Positions 20,114 through 62,880 of a stretch of DNA of 64,000 nt are shown one piece after another; the first letter of the stretch is position 1, and each line of letters opens with the position of its first letter. A program made the translations under genes and the position numbers. The notes below the pieces were generated by a model that was given only the letters and a program-made list of their open reading frames with translations, did no database searches and was not told where the DNA came from. The DNA is taken from the sequence record PZ347775.1; one strand, 5' to 3'. Origin of the DNA: a phage.

Positions 20114-20764
20114 TTATTTTTCCTTTCTTATGAAGTTTTCTATCATATGTCTATAGCAGATATTAGGATAACCTGCCTTGACAGCTATTTTATTAAATTT
20201 TGTGCGCTTAGGTCTATTATTATAAACCCATAATTCATAAAGCGCATCATAACTATTCCATATTTCTCCTCGCCTAGGATTTGGTAAACCGTATCGAGGC
20301 GAATTTTTACCGCTAAATCTTCCTTTTCGGGCTTTACTCATATTAGCCTTGGCTTCATCGGATATAATTTTACCTTTATGAGCTAGACGCATTTTGGCTT
20401 TAGTTTCTTCTGGGGTCTTTTTGCCTTTAATCCATGACGGCTTGCCATATCTAGGATTATTTTCACCCGAGAAAAGAACAGAGTTTTGGATTTTAAGAGT
20501 TTCTATTAATCTACTTGTTAATTTAACACCTTTATTATATCGCATTAAATTTACAGCATAATGCAATCCTCTCACATCTGGATATATTTTAGTTAATAAT
20601 CTATGAGCTATAAAATGCTCACGCGCAGTTAACTCAACAAGATTGTTTTTGTCATCTGCTCCTCCTATACATCTAGGAATTATATGATGGCGTTCTTTAT
20701 ATCCGCCAAGATGCCGGCATTTAGCTTTTGTAATTAAAGCCGAGTAAATTTTTTGGTAATTCAC
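20114..20764 (-). CDS. free-standing HNH homing endonuclease with NUMOD-like DNA-binding repeats
   Basis: N-terminal His-Me finger ERHHIIPRCIGGADDKNNLVELTAREHFIAH; repeated basic K-G-K modules; GTG or nearby start with AAGGA SD. Confidence 0.8.
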   Translation of the reverse strand: MNYQKIYSALITKAKCRHLGGYKERHHIIPRCIGGADDKNNLVELTAREHFIAHRLLTKIYPDVRGLHYAVNLMRYNKGVKLTSRLIETLKIQNSVLFSGENNPRYGKPSWIKGKKTPEETKAKMRLAHKGKIISDEAKANMSKARKGRFSGKNSPRYGLPNPRRGEIWNSYDALYELWVYNNRPKRTKFNKIAVKAGYPNICYRHMIENFIRKEK

Positions 20765-20834
20765 ATATATCCTTTCAATTCATTGGTTAGTAGATTAATT
20801 ATACAATAAATATATAAAGCAATAAGGAGGATAT

Positions 20835-49638: not shown

Positions 49639-50028
49639 TTAATCCAAAATATTATTAGGCATTGGTTGAACACTCGCAAGTTCTTTAAAGAACTCAGTAG
49701 AGTCAGGTAATTTAACCATTTCCGGAGCATGCTTGCTAAATTTGTGTTTACAATGACGGCATTTATATTCAAGTTCCGGTTTACGCCAGTTAATCAATTG
49801 AACCTGTTCAGTACCGCATTCAGGACAATTAGGAACGTTTTTAGAAGCCCTTTCGCGACGTTCAACCATAGCCATAATAGCATCCCAGGCTGGAGGTTTA
49901 AAATCTAAATCGTCACAACCATGAATCTTTCCACGCATTTCTAAATCGTCTTCTTCACCAGCCATAATAATTTTAATTAGACTGGAATTACTTGAAGCTG
50001 CAATATCTTCTAATAGACGCTTTTTCAT
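49639..50028 (-). CDS. zinc-ribbon protein (129 aa)
   Basis: CPECGTE ... CRHCKH four-cysteine motif. Confidence 0.55.
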
Positions 50029-50954
50029 TTCAGTACCTCAATAGCATTACGTAAACCATTTGCTTTTGCATTAAGAGCTTTTAACAATTTAGTGTGTTCG
50101 GCAATTTGGGCTTCAACTTCAATCAAACGAGCATTGAGATATTCGCGTTCTTCGCTCAAGCTATCAACCTTTTCTACTTTAGGTTCTTTTACAACTGGCT
50201 TATATGTATTAGGGTTCTTCAGTTTAATTAGAATACGTGAACTGTATAACATTGAACCATTATTTTCGATTTCGTCATACATTTCTACTACGTCCATGAT
50301 TTTTAACATCATGCGGAGTTTATAAGATAACGAACGAATAGTTTTGTTGTGCTTATTAATTTCTCTAGCTGTCATGGTGCCGAGATTACGTGAGTAATAA
50401 TAAGGAACCTGGATATTAATTAATACTGATGAACCACCTGGCTTGTGTGTTACTTCATCAGCAATAACCCAGTCCTTAACATGAACTGTATTTGTACGGT
50501 CATCGCCCGCGGTAAATAGTTTACGAGCATGCTTAAAAAGCATATTCACTTGGTCATTGAAATGACAAGCAAATTTATCAGCAAATTTAGTTTCAGGAAT
50601 GGTAGATAACCAATCAGCCAAATGGGTCTTTTTAACATCGTTAACAATAGTAAATTCAACCAAATCAGTTATAGATGTCTCAGATTTAATAAAGCTCGGC
50701 TTCATAAAGTTTTTAATGTTATCGCGAGCTACAGTAGAAGATAACATACGAGAACGTTTAAACCATTCAAGCAAATTGCCTAACGAATAAGAATAAGCGT
50801 TTTGAGTATCTTTACAGATATGATTTTCCTGGCCAACATATTGAAGGAAATCACGAAGAATATTATTAATTACTGCTCTGTGTCCGATCTGATAATTACG
50901 GTGTTTAGTAATAAGACTGTCAAAATAATCAATATAATGTTTACGAGTTTTCAT
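50025..50954 (-). CDS. paralog family member 1 (309 aa) with C-terminal coiled coil
   Basis: Shares MTARE/YMDVV blocks and C-terminal heptad region with next three genes. Confidence 0.6.
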   Translation of the reverse strand: MKTRKHYIDYFDSLITKHRNYQIGHRAVINNILRDFLQYVGQENHICKDTQNAYSYSLGNLLEWFKRSRMLSSTVARDNIKNFMKPSFIKSETSITDLVEFTIVNDVKKTHLADWLSTIPETKFADKFACHFNDQVNMLFKHARKLFTAGDDRTNTVHVKDWVIADEVTHKPGGSSVLINIQVPYYYSRNLGTMTAREINKHNKTIRSLSYKLRMMLKIMDVVEMYDEIENNGSMLYSSRILIKLKNPNTYKPVVKEPKVEKVDSLSEEREYLNARLIEVEAQIAEHTKLLKALNAKANGLRNAIEVLK

Positions 50955-51006
50955 GTTCTTCTCACTTGGTTAATGATTTATACTCCGAGCCATCCTTGGC
51001 TTTAAA

Positions 51007-52008
51007 TTACTTAATTAACTGTAAAGCTTGTTCAAGACGATTCAGGCGATTAACAGATTCTTCCCAAATACTTTTAGCCTGCTCATATTCTTTCTGCGCT
51101 TTATTAGAAATTTCTAGAACTTCTTTATAAGCTTTTTCTAGTGCAATAACTTCTGGACGAATTTCTACCGGTTCAGGCGAATCGTCAAGATTATCCATTA
51201 GTTCCTCAAGGGTAGTTTCTTCTTTAGGAGTATTCACAATTTCTTCACATTTTTGTTGGTAAATTTCTTTATCAGTCGGTAAATAAGCACATTTCACTTC
51301 ACGAAGACTAACTACAATTTTATATCCTTCCCAACCGCATATATTCTTAAAAGGATACGTATGAATATTTTCTACTGTTTCCATACAAAGTAATGCGGTT
51401 TCTAATTGACGAGTTATAGTGCTAGCAATTGAGAAAAATTTATTAATGTTCTTTTGGTTAGTTTCTGGTGTAAAAAATCCATAATTCACAAAAATAGATA
51501 CTTTATTTTTATCAAGTTCATATTCTTTTACGATAATCATATCAGAAGCCAAAGGATGAATTTGACGATAATCGCCATAACATAATTTAGAAGCTGATTT
51601 TAGAATTTGCTTTTTGAAAAGTCTGAAATTACTAATCCAACGACGAGTAAAAATATTCTCAGGGTCTTCTTTATTATTAAGATGATAAGAATTAACATCA
51701 CCGAACCAATTATATCCTACTACATCTTTGGTTCGTTTAATTTCTTTCCCAAAATTACCAAGAATATCCCGATTAACCAAATATGAAAGAAGACGAGACT
51801 CTTTAAAGGTTTTCTTGATAACATCTTTATCTACACGACTAGAAATTTTACGAATTTCATGAATAAATTTAGTAGAAGAAACAATACCTGCATCAACACT
51901 ATTGAGCCATTGATTGATAATAGAAATAACGCTATTTTGACCAAACATCGGTATAGCTTTATCATCAATAACACTATTGAATGATTTGATATATTCGTTA
52001 CGAGTCAT
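51007..52008 (-). CDS. paralog family member 2 (333 aa) with C-terminal coiled coil
   Basis: ATG MTRNEY after GAGGAG SD; RRW...FKKQILKSASKL block shared with member 3. Confidence 0.6.
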   Translation of the reverse strand: MTRNEYIKSFNSVIDDKAIPMFGQNSVISIINQWLNSVDAGIVSSTKFIHEIRKISSRVDKDVIKKTFKESRLLSYLVNRDILGNFGKEIKRTKDVVGYNWFGDVNSYHLNNKEDPENIFTRRWISNFRLFKKQILKSASKLCYGDYRQIHPLASDMIIVKEYELDKNKVSIFVNYGFFTPETNQKNINKFFSIASTITRQLETALLCMETVENIHTYPFKNICGWEGYKIVVSLREVKCAYLPTDKEIYQQKCEEIVNTPKEETTLEELMDNLDDSPEPVEIRPEVIALEKAYKEVLEISNKAQKEYEQAKSIWEESVNRLNRLEQALQLIK

Positions 52009-52065
52009 ATTAATCTCCTCAGTAGAAAGTAAGAACATTATACCACATCCTTGTGGCAAAGTAAA

Positions 52066-53094
52066 CTAGTTCAGTGCATTTAGTGCATTGTTCAGTTTAG
52101 AACGTTGCTTCGTAAGATTTTTGACTTTTTCTTGAGCTTTTTCTAGTATCTTTTCAGCTTCTAGCACTTCATTAGTTGCTTTAACGAGTTCATCATCTAC
52201 TGCCTTGATAGACTTCTCAATCGCATCGGCATGCCATTTTTCAACAGGTTTAAGACTCGGATTTTCAACAGGAAGAAAATTCACTTTATTGAATTTCCAT
52301 GCATCCTTATTACCTGAACTATACATCCAAAATTTAGGATCGTTTGATGAGTAATTGGATAAATTTAAATTTAAGTTATCTTGTACTTCTTGCTTTTTCT
52401 CTTGTGGGACTTCGTCCTTTCTCAAAAAATCGTATTTAAATGAAACGATCATATCAAGTTCATATGTTGTTGTGTCTAATTTAAATCGCTCAAAACGAGG
52501 TAAAATCTTAGACTGAACTGCAGCAACAACGTCCATATACTTAAATGCTTCTGTCAACTGCGATTTAAGGCATTCGCAAATTGAAAGAGAATTTTTTGTA
52601 TTAGGTTTAAAGCTAATTCGTGCAGTTCTGTTATTTTCTTTTAATGGTCTTACTTCCATCTGAAGAGTATAACCATCAAATTTCAGGTTCTTTAAGTTAA
52701 TATCAGAACCTTTTAATCGACTCGCAGTTGATAAAATTTGCTTTAATTGTCTACGGAACAGAGCAATAAATCTCCATTCAATACGATAATGATTTGGATT
52801 GAAAAATCCAGATGATAAATCGACCTTACTTTGACCAACGCCTTGAACAAATAAAGGATTTTTATAATCAATAGTTTTACAGAAATCGGTGAGTTGCTCA
52901 CGAGCAGTCATTTGTGTAATATAACCCGCTTTACTAAAATTACGCACCCATTCACTGCTATTCGTATACTTAAAGTGATGAATAACACGATTAACTTTAT
53001 CAGGGTCTAAATTATTTTCACACAAAAATGTCATAACATCACGAGTATAGCTGGCGTTACGAACCATATCTTCAATTTGAGAACGAGTTTTCAT
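52066..53094 (-). CDS. paralog family member 3 (342 aa) with C-terminal coiled coil
   Basis: RIEWRFIALFRRQLKQILSTASRL and KYMDVV blocks; C-terminal coiled coil. Confidence 0.6.
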   Translation of the reverse strand: MKTRSQIEDMVRNASYTRDVMTFLCENNLDPDKVNRVIHHFKYTNSSEWVRNFSKAGYITQMTAREQLTDFCKTIDYKNPLFVQGVGQSKVDLSSGFFNPNHYRIEWRFIALFRRQLKQILSTASRLKGSDINLKNLKFDGYTLQMEVRPLKENNRTARISFKPNTKNSLSICECLKSQLTEAFKYMDVVAAVQSKILPRFERFKLDTTTYELDMIVSFKYDFLRKDEVPQEKKQEVQDNLNLNLSNYSSNDPKFWMYSSGNKDAWKFNKVNFLPVENPSLKPVEKWHADAIEKSIKAVDDELVKATNEVLEAEKILEKAQEKVKNLTKQRSKLNNALNALN

Positions 53095-53102
53095 GGTGTT
53101 CC

Positions 53103-54014
53103 TTAAGATTTAAGTAAATCGACAATTTTAATTAACTTTTCACGCTCAGATTTAGCTTTACTACTCAGTCCAGATAGTCTGAAAATTTCATCATCATATT
53201 GTTGAATAGAAATATTCAGCTCTTCAATCTGCTTATTAAAATAATCAATTTGTTCAGAATGTTTTTCGTTACTACGAACTGGTACAGGTTTTGTAGGCAA
53301 TGTAGTTGAACTGGATTCATCCGGGCGATAAATTAAAATACAACTTGAACCAATAGGGCATTTTGCACCAGATGAATATTCTAATGTTCCAGCTTCTTTT
53401 AAAACTTCAAAAGCTAAACAGAGATGATGTCCCATATTAACATAATCTGTAGAGTGAGCTCTGATGTAATAATCATCTCCACGAATACTAAATTTAAAGC
53501 ATTTAAGGTCTTCTGTATTATTGGTCTTAAAAATCATTTGTTTATCTAGACCTTTAGCTAATCGAGCGCCCAATGCTAATAATCGTCGTTGATTTTCCCA
53601 CAAATCCGCAATCATTTGATCGAATGATAATTTCGGCATTAGTCGACCATAAAGGTCATATCCTTTATTATAATTACGAAGAATTTCACTCGCATTAATA
53701 CGAGACAACGCTCCAATTTTATTAAGGGCTTTCATAATGCGATTAGATAAACTCATTCCAGACCCATTTGTTCGCTGTAAATGTTTTTCTAATCCAAAGC
53801 CAATATCAACTTTAAACTTATCTAAAATTTCGGCATGAACATCTCTGTCAATAACATTCAAATCCAAAGTTGGGTTAAATCTATGAAAAAATTTATCTGG
53901 CTCTCCACGACGAAATACAGTCCATTCATTCATCATTTTTTTATTAACTAAAGATTTAATTACTGCATTGACATTATTAATTGCTACTGACATATTTTCC
54001 TCACTCAATTTCAA
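53103..54014 (-). CDS. paralog family member 4 (303 aa) with C-terminal coiled coil
   Basis: Divergent member; ADLWENQRRLLALGARLAKGL block and C-terminal coiled coil. Confidence 0.55.
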   Translation of the reverse strand: MKLSEENMSVAINNVNAVIKSLVNKKMMNEWTVFRRGEPDKFFHRFNPTLDLNVIDRDVHAEILDKFKVDIGFGLEKHLQRTNGSGMSLSNRIMKALNKIGALSRINASEILRNYNKGYDLYGRLMPKLSFDQMIADLWENQRRLLALGARLAKGLDKQMIFKTNNTEDLKCFKFSIRGDDYYIRAHSTDYVNMGHHLCLAFEVLKEAGTLEYSSGAKCPIGSSCILIYRPDESSSTTLPTKPVPVRSNEKHSEQIDYFNKQIEELNISIQQYDDEIFRLSGLSSKAKSEREKLIKIVDLLKS

Positions 54015-54991: not shown

Positions 54992-55019
54992 TTTCTGTTC
55001 CTCCGTAGTTGATAGTTGT

Positions 55020-55049
55020 ATAGTACCACAGAGGAACAGTCTTGTAAAC
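55020..55049 (-). promoter_or_regulatory. T4-type early promoter
   Basis: -35 GTTTAC (55044-55049), 18 nt, -10 TACTAT (55020-55025); same module as at 1907-1936. Confidence 0.5.
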
Positions 55050-55051
55050 CA

Positions 55052-55366
55052 CTAAAAGAAACTTCTTTCGCAATTTTTTCCACTGAACCATGCGCTCACT
55101 GCTTTCTTAGTCTCAGGAGCAGTGTTATCCATAAACCATTCAAAGGCAGCCTTTTTATGATTCTGGAGGGCTTCTCGGGCTTTAATCTGCTCACGGTCTA
55201 TTAACACTAACATATGAGCCTTTCTTGTCACCATGGGCTTCTTATGATTTTTTGAATACTCCCAGTCATTTGTCCATCGCATTGTCGTTGCGAACTGAAA
55301 TACAGCTTCTTTAATCTTAGTTTCGTAAATTTCACGAGCCTTTGAGTATAACATCACTACCTCCAT
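55052..55366 (-). CDS. hypothetical protein (104 aa)
   Basis: ORF. Confidence 0.5.
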   Translation of the reverse strand: MEVVMLYSKAREIYETKIKEAVFQFATTMRWTNDWEYSKNHKKPMVTRKAHMLVLIDREQIKAREALQNHKKAAFEWFMDNTAPETKKAVSAWFSGKNCERSFF

Positions 55367-55436
55367 TCACCAGTTTAATTCTAGTCATCTTTTTGATGGC
55401 AGTCCATATAATCTATTTCTGAACTGTCTTTTTGTC

Positions 55437-56156
55437 TTAGGATTCTTCTAAATGTCTTTTCTGAAAAGTTGATACCATACTACGATACGGTTCATTTGGA
55501 TACCCGTGTTTTATAGCTTCCTTTGTAAATTTTCTCCATCCATATTTAGTTTCTTTCCAAAGCTCGAATAATTCATCTTCATATTGCCATATAGTTAAAT
55601 GAGAACGCTTTGCAGCTTTAATTCCATTAATATGCTTTTCTTTTACTACAGGATTACTTAGTTTCTTTTTAATAATATTACTAACTTTTCTAACAAAAAC
55701 TGGGTCCTTATATCGTTGCGAAGTTTTTATTGAAGTGTTTAATTTAGCTTCCGGTGTGGATGTGACCTCTTTCATCTTTTTCTTCATATGCTGTATATGA
55801 TTAGGATTTTTCCATAAATTTATAGAATGCTTTTTGCATTTTATCCTAGTTTCATCTGCAACCTTTCCTCCTTCACCTCCGTATGACAGGTTAACACAGT
55901 TTTTTCCATATTTCAATTTACCTGCCATGATATATAATATTTCAGCTTGTACCATTTTATCATAATTATCAAAAACTTCTAAAACCGTTTTTGTTAATAT
56001 GTGGTCATTTGACACTTTTACACGTTCTATATAATTTCCACTACCAACATACGAATCATTGATGTTATTAGTTATATGTCGACCATAATAGTATTTCTTA
56101 ATACCTGTCTTTAAATTTAATATTTCAGTTTTATAGATAGTAAAATATTTTTTCAT
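55437..56156 (-). CDS. free-standing GIY-YIG (Seg-like) homing endonuclease
   Basis: N-terminal TIYKTEILNLKTGIKKYYYGRH ... SYVGSG; NUMOD-like repeats; C-terminal ELW...GYPN...YR module shared with the HNH endonuclease. Confidence 0.8.
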   Translation of the reverse strand: MKKYFTIYKTEILNLKTGIKKYYYGRHITNNINDSYVGSGNYIERVKVSNDHILTKTVLEVFDNYDKMVQAEILYIMAGKLKYGKNCVNLSYGGEGGKVADETRIKCKKHSINLWKNPNHIQHMKKKMKEVTSTPEAKLNTSIKTSQRYKDPVFVRKVSNIIKKKLSNPVVKEKHINGIKAAKRSHLTIWQYEDELFELWKETKYGWRKFTKEAIKHGYPNEPYRSMVSTFQKRHLEES

Positions 56157-57121
56157 TTTAATAATACCGTTTCAGCAATTTCTTCCCAACCGTTTTTGTC
56201 GGTCATAATAAAGTCAGCAAGATAAAGAGCAGTACGCAGTGAAACATTGCGTAAACGATTAACATTAACTTTCATCCATGATAATGCTTTATAAGTTTCT
56301 TCATCAGAAAGACCGCGCTTTTGCATCATGTCAGTTGAAAGAATAACATCTTCAACCCTGACCATAATTTCTTCATTAGTGTGAACACCCAAATCCAAAT
56401 AAACTGAGCGGGACACCAATGCTTGTAAGTGTGGAGCAAGTTTAGTACCACGGTCTAATTCGCGGTCAATGTCAACGTTTGTGATAAAAACAATCGTTCC
56501 TTTAAATTCAAACTCACGGTCAATGCCTTTTTCTTCTAAGTAAGAAGATGCAGTGCTCCAGCAGACTTTACGGGTCTCTCCAGTGTCCAGAGCAGCTTTT
56601 AGAAGATTAAGAATGTCCATATCAGAGAAAACATCCACATCATCAATCAAAAGGACAGAATTCTCTTCACGATTATTCCAAAGCTGTTCATAAAGACCAA
56701 TACCAGAGATTTTACCATTAATGCTTTTATATTCAATGTATCCATTATCATTTGCTTTATTTAAAGCTTTATCTAAAGAATACGTTTTACCAATACCTGC
56801 TGCGCCAGAGATAATTAATGAACGAATATTTCCATTAATAATACCATTCGTCATCATTCCCATAACATTAAATCTTTTATTAATGCGGGTTTTCATATCT
56901 TCATATGATTCTTTAACTTCTTCAACTTTTACACCATCATATGAAATATCTGATTTGTAAACCCAAACACCGCGACGTTTACCGTCAATTTCAACAAAAA
57001 CTTTACCATCTCCTTGTGCATCTACCGGAGCATTATCTGGGAACCATTCGCCTAAGAGCTCAAAAGTTCCAGAGATTTCTTTACCGAAGTAGATACCCTT
57101 ATTGATAGTTACAGTTTTCAT
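56153..57121 (-). CDS. AAA+/P-loop ATPase (322 aa)
   Basis: Walker A GAAGIGKT, Walker B LLIDDVD, sensor-1-like FITN; ATG after GGAGAATAAA cassette. Confidence 0.7.
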   Translation of the reverse strand: MKTVTINKGIYFGKEISGTFELLGEWFPDNAPVDAQGDGKVFVEIDGKRRGVWVYKSDISYDGVKVEEVKESYEDMKTRINKRFNVMGMMTNGIINGNIRSLIISGAAGIGKTYSLDKALNKANDNGYIEYKSINGKISGIGLYEQLWNNREENSVLLIDDVDVFSDMDILNLLKAALDTGETRKVCWSTASSYLEEKGIDREFEFKGTIVFITNVDIDRELDRGTKLAPHLQALVSRSVYLDLGVHTNEEIMVRVEDVILSTDMMQKRGLSDEETYKALSWMKVNVNRLRNVSLRTALYLADFIMTDKNGWEEIAETVLLK

Positions 57122-57182
57122 TTTATTCTCCAAATCCGTATCAGTTGATAGTTGTATAGTACCATACCCCCTTTGTGTTGAT

Positions 57183-57668
57183 TTATTCCATTTCTACTAT
57201 ATGCATGTTCTTTTTGCTATCAAAATATATGTTTTTAACTATTAACTCAGAATTAATTGGCAGTAAAAACTCTCTTTCATAATCTACCATACAAAGATTA
57301 TCATAAAGCTTGTTAAGCTTATCATCGTCAGTTTGGCCAGATTCTTCAATTGCGATTAAATTTTCTAAAATGTCAATCATAGCAGTCGAATAGTCAAAAA
57401 CGTTTGCATTTTTTAACACTACTAAAACATTAGTCATATAGCGTTCTGCCGCAAACGTTTCAGCTATATGAGACTCACTGCTAAAGGAAGTTATTCTTTT
57501 AAATTTGATTCTCCTATTAACTTCAAACTTATAAGATAACACTTCCTCTATTGTAAGTCCTCTAAAAAGTGTGTCTTTAATCTCAAGTTTGTCTTTAATG
57601 TAATCATTAACACGCTTATGATTAAAATCATTAATTTTGTTGCCAAGGCATTGCATTAAAATATGCAT
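57183..57668 (-). CDS. ModA/ModB-like R-S-E ADP-ribosyltransferase candidate (161 aa)
   Basis: LFRG / SFSSES / YEREFLLP in ModA-like order and spacing; GAGGAG SD; own early promoter. Confidence 0.6.
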   Translation of the reverse strand: MHILMQCLGNKINDFNHKRVNDYIKDKLEIKDTLFRGLTIEEVLSYKFEVNRRIKFKRITSFSSESHIAETFAAERYMTNVLVVLKNANVFDYSTAMIDILENLIAIEESGQTDDDKLNKLYDNLCMVDYEREFLLPINSELIVKNIYFDSKKNMHIVEME

Positions 57669-57714
57669 TGTATTCTCCTCAATTTTTAAAGAGCAATTAA
57701 TTAACTACACATAT

Positions 57715-57744
57715 ATTATAATATGCTTTGCGATAGAAGTAAAC
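57715..57744 (-). promoter_or_regulatory. T4-type early promoter
   Basis: -35 GTTTAC (57739-57744), 18 nt, -10 TATAAT (57715-57720). Confidence 0.5.
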
Positions 57745-57772
57745 AACTTTGTGACGTCATTTTAAACAAAAA

Positions 57773-57790
57773 AGGGAGCCCGAAGGCTCC
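57773..57790 (-). terminator. UUCG-tetraloop hairpin / terminator after nucleotidyltransferase operon
   Basis: gggagcc-cgaa-ggctccc immediately 3-prime of the 57794 ORF. Confidence 0.5.
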
Positions 57791-57793
57791 CTA

Positions 57794-58807
57794 TCATTTA
57801 TAATAACTTCGGTGGTTTTCAAGATAAACCCTCTCAAGGAAGTCATCCCAGAAACCCATGTCTACTTTTTGCTGCATACCGTTCTTAGAAGCTTCAATGG
57901 ATGCTGCTTCTACTTGATCGACCACATCTTCCAAAAACTCTTGAACAGTTTTAAATGGATGCTTACCCAACTTCACGTCGAGAATAAACGGAGCATCTTG
58001 GAGTGGATAAACCAAGTCACCAGTTTTGTAAATTTCCAATAGTTGGAGTCCACCACGACAAGCATGGCTCAAAGCTTTCCAGTCAATGCCCTCATTCGCT
58101 TCAGCTTTACGAGCGCGTTCACCGTATTCGGCATCAAGTTTATTCAAAGACTGCTTAAGCTCAATAAGAGAAAGTGTTGTCTGATATTTACGACCCAACA
58201 CGGTATAGAACGTTTGAGGGCCTGTTTTCTCATGATTATGGAATACCCATTCGCAGAATTCGTTCTCTGGAAGACGATGCTTAATATCTTCAACTTTAGT
58301 GCGACGTTGCTTAATAGAACCATCTTCTTGGTAATCAACCCACTGGTCAGGGATTTGATTAACTACTTTCAATACATCACGTAATGCGGCCAAACGAGAA
58401 CCCTTAACACCATATTTAGAAGCTTGCTTGCGAACATATCCTAAATAGGATTTCATGTTAGTTGTATAAAACCGTGAACGATTGTCTTGAATAAACTTCC
58501 ATACATCAGGCAAATCAGATTTAACTACCAGTTCAGGTGGAGTGTGGAGCATATCCAATGCTACGGTTTCACCATCTGCTGCTAATTTAAAGAAATACTT
58601 AAGACTGTATAGTTCATGGTCAATATCATTTTTAGTGTTTTTAGATGATGTGTTGTTAGTGTTTTTACTCATATGCTCTTTAACATTTCCGATAAGAATA
58701 TCGCGAGCAGGAGGAACAAAGATTTCTTTAAAATCTACATCAGATTCTGGTGTAGAAGTTCCATAAAGATGACTACCAAAATAGCTTTTCATTACTGTTT
58801 TCATCAT
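57794..58807 (-). CDS. Pol-beta superfamily nucleotidyltransferase (337 aa)
   Basis: N-terminal hG[GS]x10DhDh motif: YFGSHLYGTSTPESDVDF; remainder helical; overlaps upstream gene by ATGA. Confidence 0.65.
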   Translation of the reverse strand: MMKTVMKSYFGSHLYGTSTPESDVDFKEIFVPPARDILIGNVKEHMSKNTNNTSSKNTKNDIDHELYSLKYFFKLAADGETVALDMLHTPPELVVKSDLPDVWKFIQDNRSRFYTTNMKSYLGYVRKQASKYGVKGSRLAALRDVLKVVNQIPDQWVDYQEDGSIKQRRTKVEDIKHRLPENEFCEWVFHNHEKTGPQTFYTVLGRKYQTTLSLIELKQSLNKLDAEYGERARKAEANEGIDWKALSHACRGGLQLLEIYKTGDLVYPLQDAPFILDVKLGKHPFKTVQEFLEDVVDQVEAASIEASKNGMQQKVDMGFWDDFLERVYLENHRSYYK

Positions 58808-59265
58808 TCAGCCTTATATTCAATAACAGGACATACTTTAGCTTTACGCGCTTTTAAAAATTCGACGATAATAGATTTCTTTGGTTGAATAGGAGGTAAA
58901 CCTTTATACGCCCTATCAATATTTTCTACATGTAAAGCATAATCCTTTTTCCATTTATAATCTTTATATTTTTCATGCAGTTGTGCAGGAATAACAAATG
59001 AACCGATAATAAGTAAAACAAGCAAAATGGCAAGTATAAATGCCGATGGAATAAGAGTCCATAAACTACCAAAAATAAGCCATTTCTGCATGATTTCTGC
59101 GCAGATGATAGTTAGACCTGCGAGTATAGTACATCCGAAAAAAGAAACAAAAAATGTAGGAATAACAATAGACCAAAAGTATGCACACAGTGTCTTAGGT
59201 CGTTTCCATTCATCATTAAACATTTTGAATAATTTATAGTGCCAAGAGCTTTCATTAATAATCAT
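58804..59265 (-). CDS. membrane protein (153 aa, about three TM helices)
   Basis: Hydrophobic segments; translationally coupled to nucleotidyltransferase. Confidence 0.6.
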   Translation of the reverse strand: MIINESSWHYKLFKMFNDEWKRPKTLCAYFWSIVIPTFFVSFFGCTILAGLTIICAEIMQKWLIFGSLWTLIPSAFILAILLVLLIIGSFVIPAQLHEKYKDYKWKKDYALHVENIDRAYKGLPPIQPKKSIIVEFLKARKAKVCPVIEYKAE

Positions 59266-59267
59266 AA

Positions 59268-59789
59268 TTATCCTTTCATTGAAGGTGTAACGGTTGTTAA
59301 ATACTTAATCATGGCTTCAGCTTCTGATTTTGATAATGAAATTTCTCCATTGTTTTGACGAATAGAAATAAAATCCGGATGACGGTCACCACCAGCTTTT
59401 AAAACACACATATAAGTATCAGTTTCATCTTCAATATTTGAAATGATTGAAGCAGTTCCGCATGAATGTGGTTTTTGATAAATCAATACAGCTTTTCTTC
59501 CACCGTTTGACTGTTCATAAACTTTTAACACATCAAACAAATCGCTTCTTTTATCAATAGCTAAGATGTTGTTTTCATCTTCAATGTTAAATCCTTCGGA
59601 TACTTCATAAAGTGTCACCCATAAATCGCCAATATCGATAGTAGTATTTTCCTTTCCATGACTTTCAAGAGCGTGACAAATTTTCTTAATTTCGTCATAA
59701 CTCATTTTAACAATATCATCTCCTTGAATAAGGAAGATGTCATTTTTAAATTCAACACGAATTAAACCGCTTTCACTTGAAATAAACAT
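59268..59789 (-). CDS. hypothetical protein (173 aa), paralog of next gene
   Basis: Shares GFNIE and C-terminal EAEAMIKYLTTVTPSM block with 59796..60338. Confidence 0.55.
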   Translation of the reverse strand: MFISSESGLIRVEFKNDIFLIQGDDIVKMSYDEIKKICHALESHGKENTTIDIGDLWVTLYEVSEGFNIEDENNILAIDKRSDLFDVLKVYEQSNGGRKAVLIYQKPHSCGTASIISNIEDETDTYMCVLKAGGDRHPDFISIRQNNGEISLSKSEAEAMIKYLTTVTPSMKG

Positions 59790-59795
59790 ATTTCC

Positions 59796-60338
59796 TCACT
59801 TTGAAATCATAGTTGGAATGACAGAATCAAGATAAGTCTTTAGCGCAATAGCTTCATCTTTGGTAAATGTGACAATATGCGCTCGAAAATCATCAATTTG
59901 ACGAATAGTTAAGACATCTCCTTCTTCATAACATTTTGATACATTTAAAACAGTTTCATCATTCTGATCGCACTGATCGCAAGCGTTAGTAATAATAGCA
60001 TTGCAATTTTTAAGCCATTTTAAACTATGTTTTCTTTCATTAGAATAATAAAAATATTTAATGTAAGTTATAAAATTATCCCAATTATTAATTGATAAGC
60101 ATATTGACTCGCTTTCAATATTAAATCCTGGGCATAAAGAATAAAAATGAATTTTATGCTCATCATTAATGCTTACAATTTTATCGGTGTAAGGTTTTTC
60201 AATTTGGGTTAAATGAATAATTTCGCTAGGCGTAAAATATAGCATATCGTCTTCTTGCGTCAAACGATACATATTATTTACTTTTTCTATAGCCAATTCA
60301 CCAAAAAGTGAACTAACTTCTAGTACTAATCGTTTCAT
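59796..60338 (-). CDS. hypothetical protein (about 180 aa), paralog of previous gene
   Basis: C-terminal DEAIALKTYLDSVIPTM; start either ATG 60338 or GTG 60362. Confidence 0.55.
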   Translation of the reverse strand: MKRLVLEVSSLFGELAIEKVNNMYRLTQEDDMLYFTPSEIIHLTQIEKPYTDKIVSINDEHKIHFYSLCPGFNIESESICLSINNWDNFITYIKYFYYSNERKHSLKWLKNCNAIITNACDQCDQNDETVLNVSKCYEEGDVLTIRQIDDFRAHIVTFTKDEAIALKTYLDSVIPTMISK

Positions 60339-60364
60339 ATTGATTCTCTTCGACTCACTCACAA

Positions 60365-60469
60365 TTACATACTCCTTTGAATAATATCAATAATATTGTT
60401 CACCAGATTATAAGTAAACATCGGGTGATTATATTGAATCATCACATACACAACAAACAAAACTTTCAT
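60365..60469 (-). CDS. 34-aa hydrophobic micro-ORF
   Basis: AGGAG SD 6 nt before ATG; own GTTTAC/TATAGT promoter; MKVLFVVYVMIQYNHPMFTYNLVNNIIDIIQRSM. Confidence 0.35.
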   Translation of the reverse strand: MKVLFVVYVMIQYNHPMFTYNLVNNIIDIIQRSM

Positions 60470-60497
60470 TCTCTTCTCCTTGGCAGTTGACAAGATT

Positions 60498-60527
60498 ACT
60501 ATACCATAACCTTGCCAACTTGTAAAC
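60498..60527 (-). promoter_or_regulatory. T4-type early promoter
   Basis: -35 GTTTAC (60522-60527), 18 nt, -10 TATAGT (60498-60503). Confidence 0.5.
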
Positions 60528-60692
60528 TGTTAAATGACGTTTTCAATAAAATTCTGGAGTTTTGTGTGAGCATCAACCATGATTTTCATTTCTTCCTTTG
60601 CGAAAGCTATACCTCTTTCCCGAGAAGAACACTCATAGTCAGAAACTGCATTAGCATATTCTTCAATTAGCTTCATTAAAAACATCTGCTTT

Positions 60693-60923
60693 TCAGTTTT
60701 CATTATTCCACCTAATCATTTCAAGATATTGAACTAACTTAGCTTTGGATTTATCTAAATCCTTTTTAGCTGCTTCTATACCGTCGTATGAATATCCTTC
60801 ACAATGCTCAACTGCTAATTGATATGAATCTATTTCAATATCACGTGCTAATTTAATGATTTTTTCAAACTGTTCGCCTGTCAGCATACTAAACTCTCGT
60901 ATTGTGATCGATAATTTCATCAA
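60693..60923 (-). CDS. hypothetical protein (76 aa)
   Basis: ORF. Confidence 0.5.
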   Translation of the reverse strand: MMKLSITIREFSMLTGEQFEKIIKLARDIEIDSYQLAVEHCEGYSYDGIEAAKKDLDKSKAKLVQYLEMIRWNNEN

Positions 60924-61107
60924 GAAACATATCTAAAGCTTCTAAAGCATTATCAACTTTAGCTTCAAATTCTTCAATACCTGATAAGGCAAAGTTAATG
61001 CGTTCCTCATCTGCTTTGCGAATTAAAGCTACCAATTCTTTAATTTTATCTGCTTGTTCGATACTAATCATTATTCCACCACATATGAAAGAGAGAATAT
61101 TGCACAC
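60889..61107 (-). CDS. hypothetical protein (72 aa)
   Basis: ORF. Confidence 0.45.
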
Positions 61108-61259
61108 GCCATATGAGTTGCAGCTTCATCACACATACTATAGCGTTTCTTAAGAAGTTCTACAAGTTCTTCACTAGTAACTTCATCCATGTCGACGAAA
61201 AAATCACCATTAATGATGACGTAGATATTTCCTTCTTGATTAAGTGCTTCAATTTTCAT
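61071..61259 (-). CDS. hypothetical protein (62 aa)
   Basis: [13 protein letters not shown] after GAGGAGAA SD and early promoter. Confidence 0.5.
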
Positions 61260-61277
61260 GATGTTCTCCTCTTTATC

Positions 61278-61307
61278 CGATGGTTGTATAGTATCACAGC
61301 TCAAATG
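61278..61307 (-). promoter_or_regulatory. T4-type early promoter
   Basis: -35 GTTTAC (61302-61307), 18 nt, -10 TACTAT (61278-61283). Confidence 0.5.
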
Positions 61308-61333
61308 GAAAGTAAACCGGTAAAATGAAAAAA

Positions 61334-61349
61334 GTCTCCCGAAGGAGAC
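61334..61349 (-). terminator. UUCG-tetraloop hairpin
   Basis: gtctcc-cgaa-ggagac directly 3-prime of rI.-1-position gene. Confidence 0.5.
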
Positions 61350-61354
61350 TAATG

Positions 61355-61741
61355 TTATTCGAGGGAAAGAAGATACTTACTCTGGTAAAACATTCCAGTA
61401 ATATCATCTATCGTGCTTTGAATGGCTGGAGGCATTTCTTTATAAATGCTGTTAGATTGGTCTAGTATACGATCAATCATTTTAATTGTGTCGGTAGGAA
61501 GTTTACTAGCATCTGGAATTGAAGGCGTGTATTTTCTACCAGAATACCCCAAATACTGCTCACCAAATTTGTCAATCAAATCTGGCAACTCAGAGAAAAT
61601 AAAATCGTATGCTTTGTGTCTAGCATAACTTTTAGTTTCAAAATGCGCAGAATGAAAATAAGCTTGTGCAGCCATTAATAAACCTAAGTATTCATCTGCC
61701 TTTGAAGGTTTTCCACTTTGTGAAAAGTCGCTGAATTTCAT
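61355..61741 (-). CDS. hypothetical protein (128 aa, rI.-1 position)
   Basis: ORF immediately downstream of rI. Confidence 0.6.
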
Positions 61742-62031
61742 TCAGTCTCCAATTTAATGTTCATAATTCTAGCGTATGATTGTGCCATCTCCGCGCCTCG
61801 CTCTATACATTCAAAATCAGAAGAGCACGGGTCATTTTTATAGGTCGTTCTCATAAAACTATAAAATCGTTCAGACGATTCTACGCTTTTATTTTCAAAA
61901 AGTGTATAAACGTGCCTAATACCAGATTCCATAAATTTATCAAAATGAGGATCGACGTTCGCTTCAATCGGCGGAGATAAAACAAACGCTAATCCTAGCA
62001 TGGCGAATAATGCCGCTGCTTTTAAGGCCAT
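61738..62031 (-). CDS. rI: rI lysis-inhibition regulator (antiholin)
   Basis: 97-aa ORF MALKAAALFAMLGLAFVLSPPIEANVDPHFDKFMESGIRHVY; closely matches T4 RI. Confidence 0.93.
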   Translation of the reverse strand: MALKAAALFAMLGLAFVLSPPIEANVDPHFDKFMESGIRHVYTLFENKSVESSERFYSFMRTTYKNDPCSSDFECIERGAEMAQSYARIMNIKLETE

Positions 62032-62043
62032 AAAGGCCTCCTA

Positions 62044-62256
62044 TCATTTTTGTCCTGTATTTACTTTATGCCGATGCACGGCCTTAACTTTATCAAGGTA
62101 TTTTTCAAAATTTCGCAATCTAGTATAGTCTGCCGGAGATTGGTTGAGTGATACTTCTCGACGCAAAGCTGAAATGATATTTCCAACTTCCCTACGAATT
62201 TCATCTAATTGAAGAACAGTAAGATTGCGAAGTTGCTTTTCAGTTAATTGTAGCAT
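62044..62256 (-). CDS. hypothetical protein (70 aa, rI.1 position)
   Basis: ORF with late promoter upstream. Confidence 0.55.
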
Positions 62257-62281
62257 ATATACCCCTTTAGTTAGATAAACC

Positions 62282-62289
62282 TATTTATA
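62282..62289 (-). promoter_or_regulatory. T4 late promoter TATAAATA upstream of rI.1/rI
   Basis: Plus-strand tatttata at 62282-62289, 26 nt upstream of ATG. Confidence 0.5.
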
Positions 62290-62298
62290 ACTTTTGTA

Positions 62299-62880
62299 CT
62301 AACCAAGCTTTTTAGTTAATTCATTCCAATGTTTTCTACACAAAGAAACATAAATTTCATCACCAATACAGATTTGATTACCTTCTTTAACTGGTGTTCC
62401 ATCTTCCATTAATCGAGCTGTCATAATCGCTTTTTTACCACAATGACAAACTGCTTTTAGTTCAATAAGTTTATCTGCAATCGCCAAAAGTTCTTTAGAA
62501 CCTTCAAATAATTTTCCAGCGAAATCAGTCCTTAGACCATAAGCCATAACAGGAACATTATATGTATCGACAATTCGGCTTAATTGATGTACCTGTTCAG
62601 TTTTTAAAAACTGGGCTTCATCTACAAATACGCAATGAATATCTTTTTGTGCTTCAGCCCATTTATAGAACTCAAAAATATCCATATCATCCGTAATAAT
62701 ATTCGCTTCCTGCTTAATTCCAATGCGAGAAACGACTTCACAGACAGAATCGCGAGTATCAATAGCAGGCTTAAGAACTAATACACTCATTCCACGTTCT
62801 TTATAATTATGTGCAGCAGTCAAAAGAGAAGCAGATTTTCCAGCATTCATTGCTGCATAAGTAAAAATTAAACTCGCCAT
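62299..62880 (-). CDS. tk: thymidine kinase
   Basis: 193-aa ORF MASLIFTYAAMNAGKSASLL; P-loop and zinc-binding Cys pairs; T4 Tk. Confidence 0.93.
   Translation of the reverse strand: MASLIFTYAAMNAGKSASLLTAAHNYKERGMSVLVLKPAIDTRDSVCEVVSRIGIKQEANIITDDMDIFEFYKWAEAQKDIHCVFVDEAQFLKTEQVHQLSRIVDTYNVPVMAYGLRTDFAGKLFEGSKELLAIADKLIELKAVCHCGKKAIMTARLMEDGTPVKEGNQICIGDEIYVSLCRKHWNELTKKLG

What the first reader, a model, noticed from the sequence alone, without database searches (positions are those of the whole stretch)
59268..60338. Second tandem paralog pair inside the nucleotidyltransferase operon
The two proteins share GFNIE(D/S)E and a C-terminal (S/T)K(S/D)EAxAhxxYLxxVxPxM block while diverging elsewhere. 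Duplication within the operon suggests subunit-like or specificity-variant partners of the NTase/membrane pair.
Basis: seen in the sequence. Interest (0 to 1): 0.4.

Follow-up and report, generated by a model that had tools for sequence, protein, structure and literature searches.

The report
Duplicated MobD.1 PUR-fold phage genes
Two neighbouring genes of a T4-like phage are true duplicates of the uncharacterised T4 gene mobD.1; they encode acidic proteins with a Pur-alpha-like three-repeat fold, are tied by gene order to a small membrane protein, and belong to a catalogued, dispensable accessory family, so the finding is real but fairly ordinary.

Summary
ORF A (59268-59789, 173 aa) and ORF B (59796-60338, or 60362 from a GTG start) on the minus strand are paralogues: 28% identity, BLASTP E 7e-11. 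Both match Pfam T4_y05I_N plus T4_y05I_C and PHROG 1502. The window is a T-even phage. B is the orthologue of T4 MobD.1. A is a duplicate found in more than 400 Tequatrovirus genomes but not in T4, where the homing endonuclease gene mobD occupies the place of A and the membrane gene.

[quoted passage not shown] The family is strongly acidic, with 1 conserved basic and 11 conserved acidic columns, so Pfam's "putative transcription factor" label is doubtful.

In 32 of 36 related loci a y05I_C-ending gene lies 9-28 nt upstream of the small membrane gene. These genes are lost or decay together (T2, L014) while the nucleotidyltransferase stays intact. Each paralogue also occurs without the other, so an obligate heterodimer is excluded.

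My best reading is a dimeric accessory protein pair working with the membrane protein. Function is untested. Interest is modest.

The parts
60498..60526 (-). Promoter-like site TTTACA-17-TATAGT with a TG extension (GTTTACA, T4 early-promoter-like), upstream of mobD.2
   Evidence: Best consensus match in 55000-62500, 10 of 12 positions; sequence read. This is a consensus match only and is not proof of function.
60365..60469 (-). mobD.2, a 34-aa ORF and the first gene of the unit; its stop lies 2 nt before the GTG of B
   Evidence: Sequence. The T4 and T2 annotations list mobD.2 at the same relative position. Pfam Phage_T4_Y05J is on the equivalent gene in L046.
59796..60362 (-). Paralogue B, the orthologue of T4 MobD.1 (Y05I): 188 aa from GTG 60362, or 180 aa from ATG 60338. 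y05I_N domain about 60039-60329, y05I_C domain about 59805-60032.
59268..59789 (-). Paralogue A, 173 aa, a lineage-specific duplicate. y05I_N domain about 59505-59789, y05I_C domain about 59274-59495. A GAGGAAA Shine-Dalgarno overlaps the stop of B.
58804..59265 (-). Small basic membrane protein, 153 aa, pI 9.3. It has two long hydrophobic stretches (about 27-58 and 63-95) and conserved basic N- and C-terminal motifs. Its start is 2 nt after the stop of A and its stop overlaps the NTase start.
   Evidence: PHROG 944 'membrane protein'. Hydropathy and a five-genus alignment are; charge. A y05I_C-ending gene lies immediately upstream in 32 of 36 loci.
57794..58807 (-). NrdC.11, an RlaP-type nucleotidyltransferase of 337 aa and the last gene of the unit
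   Evidence: Pfam RlaP E 1e-10 and PHROG 388. It is 97-99% identical within Tequatrovirus and 82-84% in other genera. dN/dS is 0.02-0.09.
57773..57792 (-). Terminator-like GC-rich hairpin followed by a T-run, directly after the NTase stop
   Evidence: 8-bp stem with 6 GC pairs, then TTTTTGTTTA.

Best explanation
Shown:
- A and B are tandem duplicates of the T4 MobD.1 (Pfam T4_y05I) family in a T-even phage.
- Each protein has three beta-beta-beta-beta-alpha PUR/PC4-like repeats. Repeats 1 and 2 fold together into one 'type I' domain. Repeat 3, the y05I_C domain ending in the conserved helix TKxEAxALxxYLxSVIPTM, is a lone half-domain.

Inferred from the fold:
- As in Pur-alpha repeat III and the single-repeat Borrelia Pur-alpha, repeat 3 should complete its fold by pairing with a second repeat 3. 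The proteins are therefore dimers.
- Homodimers are the default, because each paralogue exists alone in some phages. A:B heterodimers are possible where both are present.

Inferred from composition:
- The family is uniformly acidic and has almost no conserved basic residues. It more likely binds a protein partner than nucleic acid.

Inferred from gene order, translational coupling, co-loss and opposite charge:
- The partner is the small basic two-span membrane protein encoded immediately downstream.
- Together they form a non-essential, fast-evolving early accessory module. The highly conserved NrdC.11 nucleotidyltransferase shares its transcription unit but does not depend on it.

The cellular target and benefit of the module are unknown. 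The duplication most plausibly supplies a second variant of the N-terminal domain on the same dimerisation and membrane-docking repeat.
For: - Paralogy and family.
- Identity of B with T4 MobD.1. The Y05J and Y05Q Pfam names on neighbouring genes fix Y05I as MobD.1.
- Repeat homology: repeat 1 and the C-domain align over their full length by hhalign, P 7e-4.
- Dimerisation precedent: type II PC4-like domains and PUR repeat III form intermolecular dimers with swapped helices (PMC7549692; PMC4764581).
- Stand-alone repeats: 70-87 aa y05I_C proteins exist, as expected for a self-pairing half-domain.
- Acidity: pI 4.2-5.8, net charge -3 to -22 in full-length members. Ten diverse members share 1 conserved basic and 11 conserved acidic columns.
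- Membrane link: a y05I_C domain ends 9-28 nt before the membrane gene in 32 of 36 non-duplicate loci, including loci from Tequatrovirus, Dhakavirus, Tegunavirus and Jiaodavirus.
- Membrane protein: net charge +7.7, with conserved basic termini.
- Co-loss: T2 has B, A and the membrane gene all fragmented while the NTase is 98.5% intact. L014 has the whole block deleted with the NTase kept.
- Natural hybrid: a single B(N)/A(C) hybrid gene is followed by the membrane gene.
- Dispensability: nrdC.11-mobD.3 was lost in genome-reduced T4 (PMC9825161).
- Both genes are functional: dN/dS 0.05-0.47.
Against: - There is no direct evidence for dimerisation, for binding to the membrane protein, or against nucleic-acid binding.
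- T4 keeps an intact MobD.1 with no membrane-gene homologue in positions 1-61000. MobD.1 must therefore retain some function without that partner, or be on its way to loss.
- Gene order across T4-like genomes is generally conserved, so adjacency is weaker evidence than it would be in bacteria.
- Every characterised protein of this fold among the top hits, except SsgA/SsgB, binds single-stranded nucleic acid. This includes the phage Whirly-fold protein ChmC.
- The C-domain of the A model has low confidence, pLDDT 57-79.
Confidence: 0.45

Rival explanations
1. A and B are single-stranded DNA- or RNA-binding regulators, as implied by Pfam's 'putative transcription factor' label. Like Pur-alpha, Whirly, MRP1/2 or the jumbo-phage protein ChmC, they would bind RNA or ssDNA. 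They might present substrates to the co-transcribed RlaP-type (RNA-repair-associated) nucleotidyltransferase NrdC.11.
Against: The family has net charge -3 to -22 and only one conserved basic column against eleven acidic ones, whereas ChmC binding depends on K and R clusters. No sequence match to the PurA, Whirly or PC4 Pfam families appears at E up to 1. The NTase is retained intact where the y05I genes are deleted or decayed (T2, L014). Other genes separate the module from the NTase in 14 loci.
Confidence: 0.2
2. A and B are acidic decoys or nucleic-acid mimics that bind and neutralise a host nucleic-acid-binding protein, such as a defence nuclease or sensor. They would act independently of the membrane protein. 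The duplication and the many divergent B alleles would then reflect an arms race, with each copy being a specificity variant.
For: The proteins are acidic. Placement is early, behind an early-promoter-like site. They are dispensable in the laboratory and decayed in T2. B alleles diverge to 48% within one genus beside a 97% conserved A and NTase, with dN/dS up to 0.47. T4 retains MobD.1 without the membrane gene.
Against: This does not explain the near-invariant adjacency of the y05I_C domain to the membrane gene, or their joint loss. There is no match in PADLOC and no literature on MobD.1 function. The most conserved part is the C-terminal repeat, not a variable target-binding surface.
Confidence: 0.2
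3. The resemblance is chance, or one copy is a decaying pseudogene, so the pair has no biological meaning.
For: In phage T2 both copies are broken by frameshifts.
Against: Pairwise E is 7e-11 and both proteins score far above the Pfam gathering thresholds. Both ORFs in the window are intact. dN/dS is 0.05-0.18 for A and 0.16-0.47 for B. A is conserved at 90% or more in about 430 genomes.
Confidence: 0.01

Closest known systems
T4 MobD.1 (UniProt Y05I; Pfam PF24449 T4_y05I_N + PF24448 T4_y05I_C; PHROG 1502)
   Same: B is its orthologue: 84% identity and the same position downstream of mobD.2. A has the same two-domain architecture and matches both Pfam models above the gathering scores.
   Different: A is only 28% identical to B and is absent from T4, where the HNH homing endonuclease gene mobD takes the place of A and the membrane gene. 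No function has been published for any member. Pfam's 'putative transcription factor' label appears to rest on fold resemblance only.
Pur-alpha (PUR repeats I-II plus III; PDB 3K44, 5FGP, 5FGO, 8CHW)
Single-repeat (type II) PC4-like proteins: Borrelia Pur-alpha (3N8B/3NM7), PC4/Sub1
   Different: Only homodimers are documented for type II domains (PMC7549692). Here two different repeat-3 sequences are co-expressed. The phage repeat has an extra beta-strand and a longer, very conserved helix.
SsgA/SsgB-like proteins of actinomycetes (PDB 3CM1)
   Different: They have a different oligomer (trimer), no third repeat, no sequence similarity, and an unrelated biological context.
ChmC of chimalliviruses (jumbo phages)
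   Different: ChmC is a basic-surface homotetramer that binds RNA through K and R clusters, and it is required for infection (10.1101/2023.09.22.559000). The y05I proteins are acidic and dispensable, and have a Pur-alpha-like third repeat.

Membership tests
Pfam T4_y05I family (MobD.1-like) | Matches to both PF24449 (N-terminal domain) and PF24448 (C-terminal domain) above the gathering scores | tested here: met
   A scores 110.7 and 84.0 bits; B scores 137.5 and 82.5 bits; the cut-offs are 24.9 and 27. Both also match PHROG 1502 over its full length.
Pfam T4_y05I family (MobD.1-like) | Orthologous position in T-even genomes, between mobD.2 and nrdC.11 | tested here: met
   Annotated T4, T2, W143, IME08, YenP8 and SHBML-50-1 loci and an HMM map of 40 loci.
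PUR / Whirly / PC4-like fold class | [quoted passage not shown] | tested here: met
PUR / Whirly / PC4-like fold class | Sequence membership in Pfam PurA, Whirly or PC4 | tested here: not met
   None of these families appears at E up to 1 in the Pfam scan. A profile search of PDB sequences finds nothing relevant; the best hit is CsoS1D at E 0.18.
PUR / Whirly / PC4-like fold class | Conserved basic and aromatic beta-sheet surface that binds single-stranded nucleic acid | tested here: not met
   One conserved basic column, 11 conserved acidic and 5 conserved aromatic columns. Net charge is -3 to -22 in full-length members. This is based on sequence only; the surface was not mapped in 3D.
PUR / Whirly / PC4-like fold class | Actual binding of ssDNA or RNA | not testable with these tools
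   This needs EMSA or fluorescence polarisation with purified protein.
Pur-alpha-like architecture (type I + type II) | A third repeat that forms an intermolecular dimer | not testable with these tools
   B-type occurs alone in T4, IME08 and YenP8. T2-type A occurs alone in L046. A single hybrid occurs in L042-45. The B family is in 730 records and A-type in about 434.
Functional operon with the NrdC.11 nucleotidyltransferase | Shared transcription unit | tested here: inconclusive
   A promoter-like site at 60526-60498 and a terminator-like hairpin at 57792-57773 bracket mobD.2, B, A, the membrane gene and nrdC.11. These are consensus matches only; no transcript data were examined.
Functional operon with the NrdC.11 nucleotidyltransferase | Co-retention of the y05I genes with the NTase | tested here: not met
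   The NTase is intact where y05I and the membrane gene are deleted (L014) or decayed (T2). More distant NTase loci (L038-L040) have neither gene.

The most novel reading that the evidence does not exclude
The y05I C-terminal repeat is a membrane-docking and dimerisation module. Acidic PUR-fold proteins would assemble as homo- or A:B heterodimers on the basic cytoplasmic tails of the small phage membrane protein. That would make the first heteromeric 'type II' PC4-like domain and the first PUR-fold module working as a regulatory subunit of a membrane protein rather than as a nucleic-acid binder. This module would be conserved across Tevenvirinae, with interchangeable N-terminal domains that set host-target specificity.
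Probability: 0.2. Interest if true: 0.55.

Novelty: new member of a known kind. Interest (0 to 1): 0.3.

Why it matters
If the reading is right, a piece of T4 'dark matter' gains a testable model: MobD.1, its duplicate and the adjacent membrane gene are present in hundreds of T-even genomes. The model is a dimeric, acidic PUR-fold protein that docks on a small membrane protein.

It also warns that the Pfam label 'putative transcription factor' is probably a fold-based over-interpretation.

Natural variants are already available as reagents for genetics: single B, single A, a B/A hybrid, a C-domain-only form, a full deletion and decayed copies.

The practical impact is modest, because the genes are dispensable in the laboratory and no phenotype is known.

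Tried and rejected
- **Heterodimer modelling.** I tried to use the in-frame B-stop-A read-through (window:59268-60338:-) as a pseudo-fusion.
- **afdb50 fold search.** The library was not installed.
- **PDB sequence profile search.** Nothing relevant was found.
- **PADLOC scan.** No hits for the six genes of the unit.
- **Literature.** 'mobD.1' occurs in one paper, and only as the mobD insertion-site label. 'y05I' gave no relevant paper. Searches on neighbouring gene names found only dispensability and domain notes. The KhtT search was not informative.
- **P0057.** This 1572-aa protein with nine 'C-domain' stretches from the exhaustive search is a Bacteroidetes-type repeat protein. Its repeats (GCDSIVTTVLTVNPAY) mimic the YLxxVxP motif, so I rejected it as spurious.
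- **IMG/VR scan with the y05I alignment.** It returned only three loci. I re-ran with the NTase as anchor.
- **Other family members in the window.** No nrdC-region protein tested (nrdC.8, nrdC.9, the 303-350 aa ORFs of 50025-54014 in this window, and T2 nrdC.6) belongs to the family.
- **Repeat 2.** It shows no detectable sequence homology to repeats 1 or 3. The three-repeat claim therefore rests on structure for repeat 2.
- **T4 beyond 61 kb.** This part of the genome was not scanned for a membrane-gene homologue.

Full report
**Where we are.** The window is part of a T-even phage (Tequatrovirus) genome. Region 57000-61500 is 97% identical to Escherichia phage W143 and matches 697 phage records. 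All genes from nrdD to tk.4 lie on the minus strand. In the direction of transcription the gene order around the finding is:
- rI.-1, then a terminator-like hairpin at 61350-61333
- the small mobD.5, mobD.4, mobD.3 and mobD.2a ORFs
- a promoter-like site at 60526-60498
- mobD.2 (60365-60469)
- B (59796-60338/60362)
- A (59268-59789)
- a 153-aa membrane protein (58804-59265)
- NrdC.11 nucleotidyltransferase (57794-58807)
- a strong terminator-like hairpin at 57792-57773

Junctions are tight. The mobD.2 stop is 2 nt before the GTG of B. The stop of B overlaps the GAGGAAA ribosome-binding site of A, with 6 nt between the genes. The stop of A is 2 nt before the membrane gene start. The membrane gene stop overlaps the NTase start.

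**Check of the observation.**
- A and B align over their whole length at 28% identity, BLASTP E 7e-11.
- In a phmmer search of all 359 ORFs of at least 50 aa in the window, each finds only the other (E about 1e-8; next best 0.19).
- Both match Pfam PF24449 (T4_y05I_N) and PF24448 (T4_y05I_C) far above the gathering scores, and PHROG 1502 over its full length.
- A profile search of the whole window finds no third copy.
- Both genes are under purifying selection: dN/dS 0.05-0.18 for A and 0.16-0.47 for B, against 0.02-0.09 for the NTase.

One adjustment: B probably starts at GTG 60362.

**What the genes are.** B is the orthologue of T4 MobD.1, at 84% identity. The Pfam names Y05J on mobD.2 and Y05Q on rI.1 show that 'y05I' is MobD.1 itself. 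A is a paralogue that T4 lacks. In T4 the free-standing HNH homing endonuclease gene mobD sits between nrdC.11 and mobD.1, exactly where A and the membrane gene are here (PMC2988022).

Counts in the phage collection:
- A-type genes at 80% identity or more: 434 records
- The MobD.1 family as a whole: 730 records
- The membrane protein family: 922 records, of which 423 at 80% or more
- T4-type mobD at 95% or more: 47 records

An exhaustive profile search of 1.8 billion representative proteins found only 26 representatives, all consistent with T4-like phages. The exception is one spurious repeat protein, P0057. The family is narrow, viral and already catalogued, but I found no literature on its function.

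**Fold.** The AlphaFold model of B (27-sequence alignment, pLDDT 87.7) has three beta-beta-beta-beta(-beta)-alpha units at residues 3-45, 53-100 and 105-178. The A model agrees, with N-domain pLDDT about 90 and C-domain 57-79.

- MRP2 and MRP1
- Whirly PBF-2 p24 and StWhy2
- an SsgA-like protein

For B there are also matches to single repeats:

hhalign aligns repeat 1 with the C-domain over their full length (P 7e-4), matching LTQEDD with IRQxDD and the two helices. Repeat 2 is not detectably similar in sequence.

In the terms of Janowski and Niessing (PMC7549692), the proteins combine a type I PC4-like domain (repeats 1+2) with a type II half-domain (repeat 3). That review describes this architecture only for Pur-alpha, where repeat III forms an intermolecular dimer with swapped helices (PMC4764581).

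The 70-87 aa stand-alone y05I_C proteins in other T4-like phages are what one expects of a self-pairing half-domain. This fold resemblance probably explains Pfam's 'putative transcription factor' label.

**Why nucleic-acid binding is doubtful.** Every full-length family member examined is acidic, with pI 4.2-5.8 and net charge -3 to -22; A is -11 and B is -9. In ten diverse members only one column is conserved as K/R, at the N-cap of the last helix.

This argument rests on composition. It was not tested by surface mapping or by experiment.

**Genome context and co-occurrence.** I anchored on the conserved NTase to collect 29 IMG/VR loci. To these I added annotated phages and metagenome contigs, then mapped home-made HMMs for y05I_N, y05I_C, the membrane protein, the NTase, MobD and NrdC.10.
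- Among 36 non-duplicate loci with the membrane gene, 32 have a y05I_C domain ending 9-28 nt upstream of it.
- This holds whichever gene carries the domain: a full-length MobD.1 (IME08 in Dhakavirus; YenP8), A (Tequatrovirus), a B/A hybrid (L042-45), a T2-type A alone (L046), or a 73-74 aa C-domain-only protein (fHe-Yen9-01 in Tegunavirus; Klebsiella phage AM_K5 in Jiaodavirus). The last two were confirmed with Pfam.
- By contrast, the membrane gene abuts the NTase in only 21 of 35 loci. Elsewhere one or two other genes, or a MobD endonuclease (L018), intervene.
- Tandem pairs arise more than once: A+B in Tequatrovirus, DUF7189+y05I_C in L011 and L025, and two y05I_C ORFs in L033. DUF7189 is weakly hit by the C-domain of A (E 1.3e-4).

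**Loss patterns.**
- In phage T2, B is split over three frames. The A-type copy and the membrane gene are each fragmented. The flanking NTase and NrdC.10 are 98.5% and 98.8% identical to the window's copies. Several T2 records show the same state.
- In L014, mobD.3 runs straight into the NTase. The mobD.2a, mobD.2, B, A and membrane genes are gone.
- T4 lost A and the membrane gene to mobD but kept MobD.1. No membrane-gene homologue is found in T4 positions 1-61000.
- Genome-reduced T4 mutants lost nrdC.11-mobD.3 (PMC9825161).

The y05I and membrane genes therefore behave as one dispensable module. The NTase does not depend on it. T4 is the one case that weakens a strict y05I-membrane partnership.

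**Evolutionary tempo.** NTase identity across genera is 82-99%. MobD.1 falls to 32-34% and the membrane protein to 28-33%. Within Tequatrovirus, SHBML-50-1 carries a B allele only 48% identical next to a 97% identical A, yet its last 23 residues are identical to those of the window's B. The variable part is the N-terminal domain and the constant part is the C-terminal helix.

**The membrane protein.** It has a conserved basic N-terminus (MIINxxSWHxKL...RPKTLCxYFW), two long hydrophobic stretches, and a conserved basic C-terminal motif (F/Y-L/I-K-A-R/K-K-x-K-x-C-P-x-I). Net charge is +7.7. The opposite charges of this protein and the y05I proteins are compatible with a direct interaction, but this is inference only.

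It is partly right.
- The pair is real and lies in one apparent transcription unit with the membrane gene and the NTase.
- The fold gives a rationale for subunit-like pairing.
- The functional tie is to the membrane gene rather than to the NTase.
- Each paralogue occurs without the other, so obligate heteromeric subunits are excluded.
- Optional heterodimers or specificity variants remain open.

**Best explanation, rivals and novelty.**
- Best explanation (confidence about 0.45 for the whole chain; above 0.9 for paralogy, family and fold): dimeric, acidic PUR-fold accessory proteins whose conserved third repeat mediates pairing and probably coupling to the downstream membrane protein. The duplication would add a second N-terminal domain variant.
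- Rival 1 (0.2): genuine ssDNA or RNA binders cooperating with the RlaP-type NTase.
- Rival 2 (0.2): decoy or anti-defence proteins acting independently of the membrane protein.
- Rival 3 (0.01 or less): chance similarity or pseudogenes.
- Novelty: a further member of a catalogued family of known fold class.
- New here: the Pur-alpha-like three-repeat reading, the charge argument against the Pfam label, and the conserved y05I_C-membrane gene module.
- Interest is modest (0.3).

Noticed in passing
window 57183-57668 (-): A 161-aa Mod-like ADP-ribosyltransferase gene (PHROG 832; Pfam Mod_ADP_RT on the same gene in L042) lies between nrdC.10 and nrdC.11, with its own promoter-like site at 57743-57715. 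It is present in T2 but absent from T4, where nrdC.10 and nrdC.11 are adjacent.
   Followed up: partly
window 55437-56156 (-): A 239-aa free-standing homing endonuclease (PHROG 314, no Pfam hit) with an N-terminus that looks GIY-YIG/Seg-like by eye. The start of nrdC.10 overlaps its start-proximal end region at 56153-56156. It was detected only in L002 and L006 among the related loci compared, which suggests a mobile insertion.
   Followed up: partly
window 20117-20779 (-): A MobD-like HNH homing endonuclease (hmmsearch E 5e-32 against T4 MobD; PHROG 655) lies elsewhere in the window. This phage therefore carries a mob-type gene, but not at the nrdC.11/mobD.1 site.
   Followed up: no
window 60530-61107 (-): Just upstream of the promoter-like site are small tandem ORFs (mobD.2a, mobD.3, mobD.4). 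Two match PHROG 653 and one matches DUF7438. In L042-L044 four to five neighbouring small genes all carry DUF7438, which makes this another tandem paralogue array.
   Followed up: partly
window 50025-54014 (-): Four consecutive ORFs of 303-350 aa (nrdC.3 to nrdC.5 type) end in coiled-coil-like tails. One matches DUF7235 at E 3e-127.
   Followed up: no
L001 (phage T2) 4871-6385: In T2, MobD.1 is split over three reading frames, and the A-type copy and the membrane gene are each fragmented. The flanking NTase and NrdC.10 are intact. Several T2 records match the window here with the same span and identity.
   Followed up: yes
L014 4820-5020 and 5004-6014: A Tequatrovirus contig has a clean natural deletion. 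mobD.3 overlaps the NTase start, and mobD.2a, mobD.2, B, A and the membrane gene are all missing.
   Followed up: yes
L042-L045 (gene at 3001-3540 in L042); protein P0011: Natural single-copy hybrid genes have a B-type N-domain fused to an A-type C-domain, followed directly by the membrane gene. They are most simply explained by unequal recombination between the tandem paralogues. An 88-aa 'Phage_tudor' gene replaces mobD.2 upstream.
   Followed up: yes
L011 2914-3316 and L025 2918-3314; L033 3533-3960: Klebsiella-type T4-like phages carry a DUF7189 gene and a C-domain-only y05I gene in tandem, directly upstream of the membrane gene. L033 has two tandem y05I_C ORFs. DUF7189 may be a distant relative of y05I_C (E 1.3e-4 with the C-domain of A).
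   Followed up: partly
L018 3782-4998: In one Dhakavirus-like contig a MobD-type HNH endonuclease is inserted between the membrane gene and the NTase without deleting either. This differs from T4, where the membrane gene and A are absent.
   Followed up: no
window 61333-61350 and 57773-57792: Both hairpins score as terminator-like on both strands. On the minus strand, which is the coding strand, each carries a T-run and brackets the mobD.5-nrdC.11 region.
   Followed up: no
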